Positions 18,566-26,653 of a DNA stretch of 64,000 bases are shown one piece after another (positions within the stretch are counted from its first letter, which is position 1; each line of letters begins with the position of its first letter). Source of the DNA: a virus (taxonomy: Duplodnaviria; Caudoviricetes); IMG/VR virus record IMGVR_UViG_2648501152_000001, positions 21,132 through 85,131 of that record, one strand, 5' to 3'. The translations under genes were made by a program, and so were the position numbers. The notes beneath the pieces are model-generated. The model saw only the letters and a list, made by a program, of their open reading frames with translations. It was not told where the DNA came from and ran no database searches.

Positions 18566-18870
18566 ACACCGAGCGATGGCCTCCAACCTCCTGGTTGGGG
18601 GCCATCGTCGTTTCCATGATCGACGAGGAGTTGACACGTGATCACCTACAGTGTCACCGAATGTGTGTGCGGCGAACGCTTCCACATGCGCATCAAGCAG
18701 GTGCCGTCGCCCGCGAACCCGGCGTTGGATACGCATATCGCGTTGGATTTCGCGGAGCATCGGGCGTGGACGCTGGCGCATCGCGCGCATGCGGGGCCGC
18801 AGGGGATCAGGTGGGTTGATGTGCGGACCTGTCCGTCGTGACCATAGGTGGTTACTGTCCACGTGGGTGG

Positions 18871-23813: not shown

Positions 23814-24771
23814 GTTACCTGGCTCGATGCCCCCGATTCCTGCGCGAGTCGGGGGCATTGTCGTGTTTAGGCAACGTTTATGCAGGTCAGGGCCATATTC
23901 CGCCAACCTTCCCGAATGTGATTAGCGTCACAGAAGATTTGGGTATGGAATCCGAGGCCAAAATTGTTTCTTGAAAGGTAACCACACGCGAAGCGCAACC
24001 TTCCATGCGCCCCTGCGGGGCGGAACCGCAAAGCGGTTCAAGTAGTTCACCACACCCGAACACCGCCACGGAACAACCATCGGCAATACACATGGATGGT
24101 TTTCACATACGCCCCGCGTAGCGTAGCGAAGCGGGATCGCTTTAGACCGCACTCGCCCGCACGGGTCGGGAACCCTACGGGTTGTCGGGAGGCCGAAGTC
24201 TGCCCAAAGCACGGCGGGTCGGTTTTCGTGTTCCACGTCCGGTTTTCCAGCTGGAACGTTGGCAATCGAGACGTGGAAAAGAGAGGTTGGGGCTTGTTTG
24301 TGCTGGTCAGTGGCGGTTTTTAGGGTTCGGGAGGGGTAAGCGTGGGGTAAACGTCGGCTTCCAGCGATCTTCCGGGTTTTCCGGAGGATTTTCCTCTGGT
24401 ATCGGCGTTTGCGCAGGCCAGGCCCAGTTTCCGGTTTCGCAAGGAAATTCAGAGCGGACGCGCGGAAAATCTCGGAAGTTCCGACACGGATGTACGGAGC
24501 TTCCGACACTGGCCGATGGGTTCCGGTAATGGTTACCGTGTGCAAGTGTGGTAACCTTGCTTTGCGGCAGAACTGTCTCTACCGCCCGAATCGTTCCACC
24601 TCCACGTGGGGTGTGTATGCGTGCACAGGTTGCTTACAAGTTGCGGCGGTGGGCGGACAGGATCGCGCCGGCCCCCACACTCGTCACCAGGACCCCGACG
24701 ATCGGGGAGTTGGATGATGTGTGGCGTTACATGGAACGCGAACAGCAGCGGCGAAGGGACGTGATCGCCCG

Positions 24772-25005
24772 ATGATCCCCGTGTGGTGGTCCATCATGCT
24801 CGCCACCATCGGCATCGTGGGCATCTACGTCACCACGCGGAAACTGTGGTGGGGATTCGCGCTCGGGCTCGCAGCGCAACTCTTGTGGATCGCCTATGCG
24901 ATTGCCACGGCCCAGTACGGGTTCATTCTGTCTGCGATCGGCTACGGCATCGTGTATTGGATCGGTGCGCGGAAGTGGTTCCATGAACGCAACACCACGG
25001 TTTAG
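24772..25005 (+). CDS. small membrane protein (PnuC-like half transporter)
   Basis: Three TM segments, W.GF.LG...Q.LW..Y pattern. Confidence 0.6.
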   Translation: MIPVWWSIMLATIGIVGIYVTTRKLWWGFALGLAAQLLWIAYAIATAQYGFILSAIGYGIVYWIGARKWFHERNTTV

Positions 25006-25030
25006 TCAACGCGGTTGCTGTGTGCGCGCA

Positions 25031-25039
25031 TGGTATACT
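25031..25039 (+). promoter_or_regulatory. extended -10 promoter for the RNA island
   Basis: TGGTATACT immediately upstream of the structured region. Confidence 0.5.
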
Positions 25040-25059
25040 TGCGTGGTGTTCATGGGAGA

Positions 25060-25375
25060 TTGATCGGGTGGCGGGTGTGAAAGAACGCACCTTTCCGTTC
25101 AAAGCCCAGCCACGAACCCGATGGTGGGGGAGCTGGCGCTGCACCCGCCACCACCTTTGACAACAACACAGAGGCATTACAGAGCAGGCAGGGGCGCGAC
25201 TGCCTGATGGTGCAGAGGCTTTGCGAAGTCCCCTTAGCGGGCGCCTGACCTGCACAGCAACAACGCGCATAGCTACCCTGCCCCAGGGTTAAGTGGGGAA
25301 GTGGTTGTGAGTGGAAGTCTCCGCGACGTAAACACCCGCAAGGGTAGTCGCACACACGGTTTCAGGCGCTCACAG
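25060..25375 (+). ncRNA. large structured ncRNA candidate (GOLLD-like context)
   Basis: Long helices 25067-78/25141-52, 25210-15/25250-55, 25239-48/25362-71, 25268-76/25301-09; GCAA tetraloop; no credible ORF. Confidence 0.55.
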
Positions 25376-25449
25376 CCCCGGCAGCCAGCGCAGACTGCTG
25401 ACAACTTCATAGCGGGCGTAGGGACTGGACCTCCACTGGCGCCCGCCCT

Positions 25450-25523
25450 GCTCCTCTACCCCAACAGGCAGAGGGAACCGGCTCAAACCCGGTGTAGTGC
25501 GAGTTCGAATCTCGCGGGGAGCA
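25450..25523 (+). tRNA. tRNA-Leu(CAA), short variable arm, no encoded CCA
   Basis: Acceptor GCTCCTC/GGGGAGC, anticodon arm ACCGG-CTCAAAC-CCGGT, T arm GCGAG-TTCGAAT-CTCGC, discriminator A. Confidence 0.85.
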
Positions 25524-25625
25524 CATAGACCGACAGCCCGATCCCGACAAGGGGTGGCTGGCGCCTGAATCAACAGGGCGTGTGCACGACGACCGCGGAA
25601 ACGCGTGCACACTCGGTCATCAAAC

Positions 25626-25770
25626 TCGACCGTGGTGCAAAGGGCAGCTAACACTGCAAGGGGAGCGGACGGCTAGGAAGCGGACGCGCATACGGCGAAC
25701 AGTCACCCCCAACCAAGCACACCCGCAGCGGTGCGGGAGATCCGTGGTTCAAGTCCACGGCGGTCGACCA
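25626..25770 (+). ncRNA. tRNA-like RNA with an expanded D-loop
   Basis: TCGACCG/CGGTCGA plus CCA, T arm CGTGG-TTCAAGT-CCACG, GTGC/GCAC D-stem enclosing about 78 nt. Confidence 0.6.
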
Positions 25771-26123
25771 AGCTCGTGAACGATCGGCCTCTGCCAGTGG
25801 ATAGCTGGTTATGCCCCGTTCGCCAGTGCAGTGCACGGCCTTACGGCACCACATGGTGCCCCACAGACGTAGACCGCCCCCAGGCTTTGTCTGGGGGCAT
25901 ACCCATATCACCCACAACTCAATACAGGCGGCGACCGTGTTCGACGACGACACACCCGAATACACACCCCGAGTAGGCGACCTAGTGGTTGCGCCCGGGA
26001 TGCATCACGTGTGCCGCATCGCCCGCATCCACAAAACACCCATCCCTTACTGCGAGGCAGAGGTGCGTGGTGTGCGGTTCGCCGTCAACCTCTCCACCAT
26101 CCAACCCCACCAGGAGCACACCA

Positions 26124-26354
26124 TTGCCTGACCAGCCCGTCACGATCTACACCAAGCCCAGCTGTGTTCAGTGTGACGCTAGCAAGCGGCGATTCAAGAA
26201 CCTCAAGATCGCCTACACCGAAATCGACATCACGCAGGACGATGCGGCCCGCGACTACGTGCTCGGTCTCGGATACTCGCAGGCTCCCGTGATCGTTGCC
26301 GGCGGAGATCACTGGGCGGGGTACAAGCCTGACCGGATCGACTCGCTCGCATAG
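26124..26354 (+). CDS. nrdH: NrdH-like glutaredoxin
   Basis: IYTKPSCVQC...LGYSQAPV...WAGYKPDRI; AGGAG RBS, TTG start. Confidence 0.9.
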   Translation: MPDQPVTIYTKPSCVQCDASKRRFKNLKIAYTEIDITQDDAARDYVLGLGYSQAPVIVAGGDHWAGYKPDRIDSLA

Positions 26355-26653
26355 TTTTTGGCAGCCTTCGGGTTGCGTGCCCACGACCAGGAACGTGGGA
26401 CCACCAACAGGTGTTCAGCGGACCACCTAGACCAAAACCGCACACACCAACGGCGATCTGTAGTGCCACAATCCGTTCGTGGCCCCCGGATAGGGTTTGC
26501 AGCGCCGTGGTGGGGAAGAACGCTGCCCTTGTGCGCGCACCCCGCCCGCCCGTGCACACGCCCGCTACCCGTGTGCACGGGCCACAGCCGTTTGCCATAT
26601 ACCTGTACGATAAACACAATCGAATACGCCACCCGGCGAGAAACCAGGACATC

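What the first reader, a model, noticed from the sequence alone, without database searches (positions are those of the whole stretch)
25060..25375. Large multi-pseudoknot ncRNA candidate next to tRNA genes
An ORF-free region after an extended -10 box. Helices read from the sequence: GGTGGCGGGTGT/GCACCCGCCACC (12 bp), GGCAG/CTGCC, GTGCAG(25210)/CTGCAC(25250), GGGCGCCTGA(25239)/TCAGGCGCTC(25362), CCCCTTAG(25230)/TTAAGTGGGG(25289), CATAGCTAC/GTGGTTGTG with three G-U pairs, and GCGAC..ACCC-GCAA-GGGT..GTCGC. Several helices cross, implying pseudoknots, and G-U pairs point to RNA-level selection. Large ornate phage RNAs such as GOLLD and ROOL are known to lie beside tRNAs. This may be a compact relative or a new class.
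Basis: partly seen in the sequence, partly recalled or inferred. Interest (0 to 1): 0.72.

Follow-up and report, generated by a model that had tools for sequence, protein, structure and literature searches.

The report
Widespread small phage pseudoknot RNA motif
The flagged region is not one large ornate RNA but a patchwork whose centre is a copy, carrying an extra inserted domain, of a small, highly conserved pseudoknot RNA that recurs between genes in many phages, has no Rfam match and has no known function.

Summary
Window 25060-25375 lies in a non-coding stretch (~25006-25930) of an actinophage-like provirus. It is modular, not one large RNA.

- **25067-25152:** a hairpin with a 12-bp base. 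It is conserved in metagenome relatives.
- **25187-25268:** an H-type pseudoknot. S1 is GGCAG/CUGCC. The loop GG-GCGCG-N pairs with a downstream CGCGC that is preceded by CAA. A 3-helix domain of about 55 nt is inserted in loop 3.
- **25270-25375:** a poorly conserved spacer.

The pseudoknot belongs to a family with no Rfam 15 match. I found it in many IMG/VR phage contigs, in a few likely prophage sites in bacterial genomes, and in cultured Mycobacterium and Corynebacterium phages. There it always sits in short intergenic gaps, in the sense orientation. A second, compact copy follows the SSB gene of the same provirus. Both stems covary.

The long-range "pseudoknot" helices are not. No GOLLD/ROOL relationship was found.

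Function is inferred only. I favour a very stable cis-acting punctuation element that affects processing, stability or translation. A new small self-cleaving ribozyme is the boldest reading still open.

The parts
25031..25039 (+). Extended -10-like box TGGTATACT. A possible promoter for the non-coding leader.
   Evidence: Read from the sequence. The consensus scan did not call it because there is no -35. Homology to metagenome relatives resumes at 25037, so the box straddles a mosaic junction. Promoter activity is inferred, not shown.
25067..25152 (+). Conserved branched hairpin. A 12-bp basal stem (25067-25078 with 25141-25152) encloses two smaller hairpins.
   Evidence: MFE -46.5 kcal/mol, z = -2.94. 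In metagenome contigs 25037-25173 is kept with 4 differences. Two of them (25122, 25123) fall in a predicted loop. No homologue was found by pattern scan. Within 25060-25375, one search lists no Rfam match at E up to 10.
25187..25191 (+). Pseudoknot stem S1, 5' strand (GGCAG).
   Evidence: CM R1 hit at 25183-25272: 42.6 bits, E 3.8e-9. S1 covaries across the family.
25192..25199 (+). Hairpin loop: L1 GG (25192-25193), S2 5' strand GCGCG (25194-25198), L2 A (25199).
   Evidence: GG is invariant in 39 of 39 aligned instances, but the selecting filter allowed only GG or GA there. The L2 position varies. S2 covaries: GUGCG/CGCAC and CUGCG/CGCGG variants.
25200..25204 (+). Pseudoknot stem S1, 3' strand (CTGCC).
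25205..25260 (+). Inserted domain in loop 3. Pa = 25210-25215 / 25250-25255. Pb = 25216-25219 / 25243-25246. Pc = 25230-25232 / 25239-25241.
   Evidence: Its only homologue is L004 3605-3691, 73% identical. That copy keeps all three helices. It has double (compensatory) changes at two Pa pairs and one Pb pair, plus G.U changes (read from alignments A1/A2). Other family members have nothing or a simple hairpin here.
25261..25268 (+). End of loop 3 (CAA, 25261-25263) and S2 3' strand (CGCGC, 25264-25268).
   Evidence: In alignment A2 the CAA and the first three S2' letters (CGC) are invariant, and the last two S2' positions are at least 90% conserved. The tail was present in 37 of 46 hairpin-pattern hits in viral contigs although the pattern did not require it.
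25270..25375 (+). Poorly conserved spacer.
   Evidence: Both fold in the MFE structure. X6/X8 relatives carry 12 listed deletions and several substitutions in 25306-25351. An X5 relative replaces 25306-25375 with 39 unrelated letters.
25450..25524 (+). tRNA-Leu (CAA), 75 nt, 181 nt downstream of the pseudoknot.
   Evidence: ARAGORN. Rfam tRNA 49.1 bits. About 80% identical to annotated tRNA-Leu of Mycobacterium phages Tourach and Douge.
25590..25770 (+). tRNA-like element: T-arm plus acceptor 3' strand plus ACCA at 25718-25770. Possible 5' acceptor strands at 25590 or 25627.
   Evidence: Read from the sequence. Relaxed ARAGORN calls a tRNA-Pro(AGG) with a 65-nt intron at 25627-25770, with a weak D arm. 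In an X5 relative, 25552-25770 shows 1 listed difference and 25772-25925 shows more than 20. Identity is unresolved.

Best explanation
**What it is.** The region is the leader of a phage tRNA-containing non-coding block, built from separable modules. Its one widely conserved module (25187-25268) is a member of a phage RNA family with no Rfam match.

**The fold.** It is a compact H-type pseudoknot:
- S1 has 4-5 bp.
- L1 is GG.
- S2 is G(C/U)GCG, pairing with a downstream CGC(G/A)C.
- L2 is one free nucleotide.
- L3 ends in (A/C)CAA. It tolerates an inserted hairpin or, as here, a 3-helix domain.

**Where it acts.** It is transcribed as part of sense-strand polycistronic RNA. In the annotated phages it sits a few to about 20 nt after a stop codon and about 10-45 nt before the next start. 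It can recur several times per genome.

**How it most likely works (inferred).** It is a very stable, self-contained fold, with an all-G/C S2 and an A/C-rich L3 suited to minor-groove triples. I think it serves as intercistronic punctuation. It would act as a roadblock or processing mark that fixes RNA ends and uncouples the stability or translation of the flanking cistrons or tRNAs.

**My odds**
- About 0.9 that it is a real conserved pseudoknot RNA.
- About 0.35 for a roadblock, stability or processing role.
- About 0.15 for self-cleavage.
- About 0.25 for a translational, protein-binding or ligand-binding operator.
For: **Family and membership**
- Window 25187-25273 matches L004 with compensatory changes.
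- The hairpin pattern found 46 viral stretches. 37 of them carry the unforced tail C(A/C)(A/C)CGCGC (36 CAACGCGC, one CACCGCGC) 2-60 nt downstream.
- In bacterial genomes only 7 of 120 hairpin-pattern hits carry the tail.
- The window scores 42.6 bits with model R1. The next hit scores 14.2 bits.

**Covariation**
- With S2 and the tail fixed, 10 of 109 non-GGCAG hits have a fully paired S1. The permutation mean is 1.3 and the maximum over 2000 permutations is 7.
- With S1 fixed, 4 of 52 non-GCGCG hits have a fully paired S2. The permutation mean is 0.34 and 0 of 2000 permutations reach 4.
- 6 of 10 pairs show changes on both sides.
- An X5 metagenome relative carries, at this very site, a compact copy. 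Its S1 change is compensatory and its S2 has a U.G pair.

**RNA level and sense strand**
- All 8 copies in annotated cultured phages lie in intergenic gaps on the strand of the flanking genes. This holds even where gene orientation flips.
- A second copy in the same provirus lies between the SSB gene and the next gene.

**No fixed gene partner**
- Neighbouring genes are diverse: major tail protein, Cas4-like exonuclease, RtcB, SbcC-like protein, TerS-like protein, SSB.

**No Rfam match**
-.
Against: - No transcript, RNA end or probing data exist. No RNA run holds the stretch.
- The functional reading rests only on position, stability and lack of gene association.
- A simple roadblock would not obviously need near-invariant L1, S2 and L3 sequence across phages of several phyla.
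- In the window and in L004 the element lies among tRNAs rather than between ORFs.
- The 39-sequence alignment was selected for full pairing. Its 100% pairing is therefore by construction, and only the tests are unbiased.
- The insert domain is supported by only two sequences.
- The single-sequence MFE of 25183-25272 does not recover the motif fold (z = -0.47).
Confidence: 0.5

Rival explanations
1. The motif is a new, very small self-cleaving ribozyme. It would trim tRNA 3' trailers and cut polycistronic phage mRNAs, in the way HDV-like theta ribozymes do.
For: - Its distribution is free of gene context: intergenic, sense-strand, phage-restricted, sometimes in tandem (L137).
- It tolerates a peripheral insertion at one site, like P4 of HDV-like ribozymes.
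- The order of strands (S1-S2-S1'-optional hairpin-CAA-S2') copies the outer P1/P2 pseudoknot and the J4/2 C-A-A of HDV-like ribozymes. This comparison uses my recall of the HDV fold and the drz-Mtgn-1 sequence printed in PMC10879173 section 12.
- In L004 it starts 1-3 nt after a tRNA 3' end. Theta ribozymes lie within 5 nt of tRNA 3' ends (PMC10879173, section 7 read).
- An RtcB ligase gene lies directly downstream in L367 and two genes away in PSonyx.
Against: - It has no P3/L3/P1.1, which form the HDV active site. Only one free nucleotide sits where they would be.
- No Rfam ribozyme family matches.
- At 25-35 nt it is smaller than any known natural self-cleaver (my knowledge).
- Only 1 of about 45 contexts abuts a tRNA end.
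- The first S1 nucleotide and the upstream base are not conserved.
Confidence: 0.15
2. The motif is a translational operator or enhancer, or a small riboswitch-like or protein-binding aptamer. It would control initiation at the gene just downstream.
For: - In many copies the Shine-Dalgarno sequence starts 0-3 nt after S2' (examples L013, L026, L038, L111, L166).
- In actinophage copies a C/A-rich unstructured tract leads from the knot to the SD.
- Near-invariant unpaired GG and CAA resemble ligand- or protein-contact nucleotides.
- The topology equals that of the preQ1-I, SAM-II and guanidine-III aptamers (my knowledge).
Against: - There is no consistent downstream gene class.
- The SD is never inside the structure.
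- In the window, L004 and L052 the next feature is an RNA gene or lies far away.
- No Rfam riboswitch model matches.
Confidence: 0.22
3. One reading: 25060-25375 is one large multi-pseudoknot ncRNA, a compact relative of GOLLD/ROOL or a new large class.
For: - The stretch is ORF-free.
- It folds somewhat better than shuffles (z = -2.07).
- It lies beside tRNA genes.
- It holds several real local helices.
Against: - Relatives swap 25174-25258 and 25306-25375 independently while keeping 25037-25173. The parts are therefore not one co-evolving unit.
- The long-range helices that would tie it together are unsupported.
- No homologue of the whole was found in phage records or among the first 57 fetched loci.
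- Rfam GOLLD/ROOL models do not match at E up to 10.
Confidence: 0.04
4. The conserved sequence acts at the DNA level, for example as a single-strand initiation signal or as a binding site for a phage or host protein. The RNA fold would then be incidental.
For: - Primary sequence conservation is very high.
- Several copies sit in replication or recombination modules: after SSB, and near RecT-like, exonuclease and SbcC-like genes.
Against: - Compensatory changes keep pairing in two stems. One of them joins segments up to 60 nt apart across variable inserts.
- G.U-type substitutions pair only on the sense strand (L441, L443, L158, X5). My filters allowed G.U but not A.C, so this point is weak.
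- Orientation always follows the gene strand.
Confidence: 0.06

Closest known systems
Minimal HDV-like (theta) ribozymes of gut phages (PMC10879173; abstract, section 7 and find-passages read)
   Same: - Small, phage-borne, intergenic and sense-strand, sometimes directly after a tRNA.
- An outer pseudoknot in which the first helix's loop pairs with the 3' end.
- An optional hairpin before a C-A-A junction.
   Different: - No P3/L3/P1.1 inner nest.
- The sequence is almost invariant, whereas HDV-like ribozymes conserve structure rather than sequence.
- Found mainly in actinobacterial, proteobacterial and other phages rather than Bacteroidota gut phages.
- Cleavage is untested.
- No Rfam HDV-family match.
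Compact triplex H-type pseudoknots: luteovirus frameshift knots, and the preQ1-I, SAM-II and guanidine-III aptamers (recalled, not tested here)
   Same: - Two short G/C-rich stems.
- A 1-2-nt L1.
- An A/C-rich L3 ending in ...CAA next to S2.
- Total size about 25-40 nt.
   Different: - No slippery site and no overlapping frames upstream.
- No gene-class association and no SD sequestration.
- No Rfam riboswitch model hit.
Intercistronic stabilisers and processing sites, such as T7 RNase III sites and REP hairpins (recalled)
   Same: - Repeated, sense-oriented structures in short gaps of polycistronic operons.
- Independent of the identity of the flanking genes.
   Different: - Those are plain hairpins recognised by known RNases.
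- This is a sequence-invariant pseudoknot with no known enzyme partner.
GOLLD / ROOL large ornate RNAs
   Same: - Phage- or prophage-borne, and here near tRNA genes.
   Different: - Those RNAs are hundreds of nucleotides long with many conserved helices. Here the conserved unit is 25-35 nt.
- No CM match.

Membership tests
New phage pseudoknot motif (defined here) | S1 of 4-5 paired bases enclosing a loop GG + G(C/U)GCG + one nucleotide | tested here: met
   Window 25187-25204 is GGCAG-GG-GCGCG-A-CTGCC.
New phage pseudoknot motif (defined here) | Downstream (A/C)CAA followed by the complement of the loop pentamer | tested here: met
   25260-25268 is ACAA-CGCGC. CM R1 scores 42.6 bits, E 3.8e-9.
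New phage pseudoknot motif (defined here) | Both stems supported by covariation across members | tested here: met
   Permutation tests. Per-pair counts.
New phage pseudoknot motif (defined here) | Intergenic position, sense orientation to flanking genes | tested here: inconclusive
   In the window it lies in a non-coding block on the strand of the flanking genes and tRNA, but not between two ORFs. The feature is met in all 8 annotated copies of cultured phages.
GOLLD / ROOL | Match to the Rfam covariance models | tested here: not met
   No match at the gathering score in the window. No GOLLD or ROOL match at E up to 10 in 24500-26500.
GOLLD / ROOL | Large multi-domain RNA inherited as one unit | tested here: not met
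   Mosaic replacement of sub-segments in relatives.
HDV-like / theta ribozymes | Nested double pseudoknot with P3/L3 and P1.1 between P2 and the 3' strand of P1 | tested here: not met
   Only one unconserved nucleotide lies between S2 5' and S1 3'. Compared with the drz-Mtgn-1 sequence in PMC10879173.
HDV-like / theta ribozymes | Catalytic C at the start of J4/2 before the P2 3' strand | tested here: inconclusive
   An invariant C-A-A precedes S2'. Catalysis is untested.
HDV-like / theta ribozymes | 5' end within 5 nt of a tRNA 3' end | tested here: not met
   In the window no tRNA lies upstream. The feature is met in L004 (1-3 nt). In L052 the gap is 22 nt.
HDV-like / theta ribozymes | Self-cleavage in vitro | not testable with these tools
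   Needs transcription and cleavage assays.
Known pseudoknot riboswitches (preQ1-I/II, SAM-II/V, fluoride, guanidine-III) | Rfam model match and a consistent downstream gene class | tested here: not met
   No match at E up to 5 on 8 motif-bearing loci. No match at the gathering score on 12 loci. Neighbouring genes are diverse.
tRNA / tmRNA (for 25060-25375) | Cloverleaf or tmRNA call by ARAGORN or Rfam | tested here: not met
   Only tRNA-Leu at 25450-25524 is called. No tmRNA is called even at relaxed score.

The most novel reading that the evidence does not exclude
The motif is a new class of natural self-cleaving ribozyme and the smallest known (about 25-35 nt). It would be a stripped-down relative of the HDV fold that lacks P3/L3. 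Phages of several bacterial phyla would use it to cut tRNA trailers and polycistronic mRNAs. The window copy would carry an accessory domain in the P4-like position.
Probability: 0.15. Interest if true: 0.9.

Novelty: new variant of a known kind. Interest (0 to 1): 0.6.

Why it matters
- A 25-35-nt RNA fold with near-invariant sequence recurs in phages of Actinobacteria, Proteobacteria, Desulfobacterota and gut phages of unnamed hosts. It has no Rfam match. Such elements usually mark either intrinsic chemistry (a ribozyme or aptamer) or contact with universal machinery (ribosome, RNA polymerase, RNases).
- It is present in easily handled phages of laboratory strains: BigNuz and LilMcDreamy on M. 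smegmatis mc2 155, and BFK20 and PSonyx on C. glutamicum. The function is therefore directly testable.
- If it is a roadblock or insulator, it would also be a very compact part for synthetic operons.
- For this window, the result replaces a speculative "large ornate RNA" with a defined, testable small motif plus unrelated neighbouring modules.

Tried and rejected
- **RNA evidence.** No RNA holder was listed for 24700-26400. The one "RNA?" run laid (X20) covered only 24700-24891 and part of the tRNA, and is probably DNA.
- **Homologues of the whole region.** Searches against phage records found only tRNA-Leu or nothing. LysB-based locus search gave one fragment without the region. The 94-aa membrane protein gave 9 loci, of which only L004 shares the motif.
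- **Pattern for the 25067-25152 hairpin.** It gave 0 hits in viral contigs. The metagenome scan with the stem halves returned 120+ unrelated GGTGGCG-type simple inverted repeats. That scan was wasted.
- **Long-insert pattern.** It found 11 stretches. One search lists ten chance matches plus the true long-insert copy in the L004/L012 contig.
- **tmRNA reading of the T-arm/ACCA at 25718-25770.** ARAGORN finds no tmRNA. The acceptor lacks G3.U70 (read from the sequence).
- **Frameshift or readthrough stimulator.** There are no slippery heptamers upstream, and the spacing from the stop codon varies from 2 to 36 nt.
- **Promoter directly upstream of the motif.** The -10-like strings in one subgroup lack the conserved A2 and the spacing is inconsistent.
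- **Co-occurring protein partner.** Neighbouring genes are diverse. The greedy ORF calls in GC-rich loci were unreliable.
- **Class-wide genome search.** 0 of 150 other genomes matched, but only 36 candidates per genome were scored.
- **Literature.** Searches for motif strings returned only unrelated primer-type hits. A topical search found no description. The catalogue of 8,495 IMG/VR structured-RNA candidates (PMC10690425, find-passages read) may list this motif in its supplements, which I could not see.
- **Earlier findings tool.** It was closed.

Full report
**Setting**

The window is bases 21132-85131 of an 85-kb IMG/VR provirus record. The record has about 61% G+C. It encodes a cutinase-type LysB, a large terminase and an HNH endonuclease, so the host is probably a mycolic-acid actinobacterium.

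Between a 94-aa membrane-protein gene (24721-25005, phrog_2421) and a short ORF plus an NrdH-like gene (from about 25937) lies roughly 925 nt without a credible ORF:
- The overlapping ORFs have no Pfam match.
- Metagenome relatives carry many non-triplet indels there.

The block holds tRNA-Leu(CAA) at 25450-25524 and a tRNA-like T-arm/acceptor/ACCA ending at 25770. No Rfam family reached its gathering score in the first, whole-window scan, which did not list even the tRNA. The laxer scan of 24500-26500 at E up to 10 finds the tRNA at 49.1 bits, above its gathering score of 29, and five sub-gathering matches (E 0.33-7.9). Three lie at 24633-24759, upstream of the finding. One (Plastid-ycf2) lies on the - strand of the tRNA. 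One (mascRNA-menRNA, 16.5 bits) lies on the T-arm at 25718-25765. None lies within 25060-25375.

**Checking the observation**

- The 316 nt fold to -128 kcal/mol. The + strand gives z = -2.07 and the - strand -1.25. That is a modest signal.
- The 12-bp-based hairpin 25067-25152 is the strongest local structure (z = -2.94).
- The -10-like TGGTATACT is at 25031-25039.

**What comparison shows**

*A related copy.* A blastn of the non-coding block against loci fetched through the neighbouring membrane protein gave one hit. Window 25187-25273 matches L004 3605-3691 at 73% identity. In L004 the match lies in a tRNA array.

*The unforced tail.* Scanning IMG/VR for the shared hairpin (GGCAG, an 8-nt loop GGGCGCGN, CTGCC) gave 46 stretches.
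- In 37 of them the hairpin is followed, 2-60 nt later, by CAACGCGC (once CACCGCGC). The pattern did not ask for this.
- 8 have no such tail and lie in coding sequence.
- 1 (L017) has only a distant match that I count as chance.

The loop pentamer GCGCG is the complement of the tail CGCGC, so the element is an H-type pseudoknot.

*Control in bacterial genomes.* The same hairpin pattern in 120 bacterial-genome hits carries the tail only 7 times. The rest are mostly coding coincidences. In a sample of 150 other genomes of one actinobacterial class the model found nothing, with limited sensitivity. The full motif was therefore far more frequent among the viral-contig hits than among the bacterial-genome hits.

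**Covariation**

I ran two scans that each left one stem free.
- *S1 free.* With S2 and the tail fixed, 10 of 109 unique non-GGCAG matches have a fully paired S1. Pairs seen include ACGAG/CUCGU, CCGAG/CUCGG, GCCAG/CUGGC, GGGAG/CUCCU, GGUAG/CUACC, UCCGG/CCGGA and UGCAG/CUGCA. Permuting partners gives a mean of 1.3 and a maximum of 7 in 2000 trials.
- *S2 free.* With S1, GG and CAAC fixed, 4 of 52 unique non-GCGCG matches have a fully paired S2. These are GUGCG/CGCAC twice, GUGCG/CGCAU and CUGCG/CGCGG. The permutation mean is 0.34 and 0 of 2000 permutations reach 4.

On an alignment of 39 unique fully paired instances, 6 of 10 pairs show changes on both sides. The 100% pairing there is by selection. 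Four fully paired candidates were dropped as probable chance: L092, L151, L353 and L147.

The GG of L1, the CAA of L3 and the three inner S2 pairs never vary in this set. The selecting filter itself fixed part of this: it allowed only GG or GA in L1, fixed the last three S2 letters as GCG, and required L3 to end in AA.

The window scores 42.6 bits (E 3.8e-9) with a model built from 25 instances. The next window hit scores 14.2 bits.

**The window's copy**

| Part | Coordinates |
|---|---|
| S1 | 25187-25191 / 25200-25204 |
| L1 (GG) | 25192-25193 |
| S2 | 25194-25198 / 25264-25268 |
| L2 (A) | 25199 |
| L3 (ends ACAA) | 25205-25263 |

Most members have 4-8 nt, or a simple GGCC-type hairpin, in L3. 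The window and L004 instead carry a domain of about 55 nt with three helices. A scan for further long-insert copies found none.

**Mosaic relatives**

Contigs of metagenome runs laid on 24700-26400 behave as follows.
- They keep 25037-25173 almost unchanged.
- In two runs they replace 25174-25258 by 210 other letters.
- They keep 25259-25623 with 23 substitutions and 37 gap letters.
- They replace 25624-25856.

In a third run a contig joins, just before 25258, a compact version of the motif. Its S1 is GCCAG/CUGGC, compensatory to the window's S1, and its S2 has a U.G pair. Another contig of that run replaces 25306-25375.

The motif position is therefore conserved while its form changes. The 3' third of the finding is dispensable.

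**Context of the family**

Cultured phages carry the motif:
- Mycobacterium phages LilMcDreamy (2 copies) and BigNuz (1 copy).
- Corynebacterium phages BFK20 (1 copy) and PSonyx (4 copies, one with the GUGCG/CGCAC variant).

All 8 copies lie in 63-108-nt gaps between annotated genes, on the genes' strand, including where the strand flips in PSonyx. In these phages S1 is only 3-4 bp and L3 is NCAA in six of the eight copies (6-8 nt in two PSonyx copies). A C/A-rich tract follows and runs to the Shine-Dalgarno sequence.

The provirus itself has a second, compact copy outside the window (record 18745-18776, 25.9 bits). It starts 14 nt after the stop of an SSB gene and ends 18 nt before the next start.

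Flanking genes across the family are diverse: major tail proteins, a Cas4-domain exonuclease, an RtcB ligase, an SbcC-like ATPase and a TerS-like protein.

tRNA adjacency is the exception:
- L004: 1-3 nt after a tRNA.
- L052: 22 nt after a tRNA.
- The window: 181 nt before a tRNA.

No tRNA is nearby in the other 29 of 32 loci scanned. One of them (L019) has tRNAs about 9 kb away.

**How it most likely works**

*Shown:* a conserved, covarying, sense-strand pseudoknot in intergenic RNA.

*Inferred:* function. The fold has an all-G/C S2, a 2-nt L1 and an A/C-rich L3. It is of the compact triplex type known from frameshift knots and small aptamers (my knowledge). It is context-free and can recur along an operon. 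I therefore favour a stable punctuation element that blocks or directs RNA-processing, decay or scanning machinery and so sets transcript ends and uncouples neighbouring cistrons (about 0.35).

Rivals:
- A translational, protein-binding or ligand-binding operator (about 0.22-0.25). The abutting SD and the invariant unpaired bases suggest it. The lack of any gene-class link weakens it.
- A new self-cleaving ribozyme (about 0.15). The HDV-like strand order, the optional P4-like insert, the tRNA-abutting L004 copy, the tandem copies in L137 and the nearby RtcB genes suggest it. The absence of P3/L3/P1.1 weakens it.
- A DNA-level site (about 0.06).

**Comparison with the known**

- It is not GOLLD/ROOL, because there is no model match, no unity and no comparable size.
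- It is not a member of the HDV-like or theta family, because the defining inner nest is absent.
- It matches no Rfam riboswitch or ribozyme model.
- I found no description in the searchable literature.
- A large catalogue of IMG/VR structured-RNA candidates (PMC10690425) may contain it unnamed in supplements that I could not read.

**Verdict**

The real finding is smaller and more widespread than proposed. It is a phage pseudoknot motif with no Rfam match and unknown function, and this window holds an unusual expanded copy of it.

Noticed in passing
Own genome record positions 18745-18776 (+), outside the window (locus L499 about 1501-1532): A second, compact copy of the pseudoknot motif (S1 CCAG/CUGG, L3 ACAA). 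It starts 14 nt after the stop of an SSB gene (Pfam SSB, 2.8e-27) and ends 18 nt before a DUF7448 gene.
   Followed up: yes
window 25590-25770: A tRNA-like element with a good T-arm, a 7-bp acceptor and an encoded ACCA. Relaxed ARAGORN calls a tRNA-Pro(AGG) with a 65-nt intron (25627-25770), but the D arm is weak. In one metagenome relative, differences start right after 25770, which suggests an RNA gene ends there.
   Followed up: partly
window 25450-25524: The tRNA-Leu(CAA) is only 75 nt and has no long variable arm. It is about 80% identical to the annotated tRNA-Leu of Mycobacterium phages Tourach and Douge.
   Followed up: no
window 24755-25036: The 94-aa membrane-protein gene (phrog_2421) is replaced by 63 other letters in contigs of three metagenome runs. 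It looks like a mosaic insertion or deletion at this spot.
   Followed up: no
L004 3511-3603: An odd 93-nt tRNA that ARAGORN reports as 'tRNA-???' with a 2-letter anticodon (Rfam tRNA 48.7 bits). It lies directly upstream (1-3 nt) of the long-insert motif copy, within an array with tRNA-Lys, tRNA-Leu and tRNA-Met.
   Followed up: no
L137 about 660-770: Two tandem motif copies, each preceded by a similar hairpin. Copy 1 has L1 GA and an S2' that ends in U, giving a G.U pair.
   Followed up: partly
L086, L138, L088, L080, L164, L155 (positions): A possible variant subtype: S1 of 3 bp, with L2 CAU instead of one nucleotide. S1 still covaries (GGG/CCC, GAG/CUC, CAG/CUG, AAG/CUU, UGA/UCA). I read this by eye and did not test it statistically.
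   Followed up: partly
L367 1316-2569 (-); PSonyx gp91: RtcB-type RNA ligase genes lie near motif copies. In L367 the gene starts 25 nt downstream. In PSonyx it is two genes upstream.
   Followed up: no
L174-L293 (metagenome contigs): Soil and sediment metagenomes hold very many long inverted repeats made of GGTGGCG/GGTGACG-type heptamer runs flanking short spacers. They are unrelated to the window.
   Followed up: no
L304, L323, L329, L370, L379, L381, L391, L393, L397, L405, L418, L423: In bacterial genomes the bare hairpin string often falls in one recurring, apparently coding context with similar flanks on both sides. I think this is the formylglycine-generating-enzyme family, from recall and not tested. 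It is a source of false positives for hairpin-only searches.
   Followed up: no
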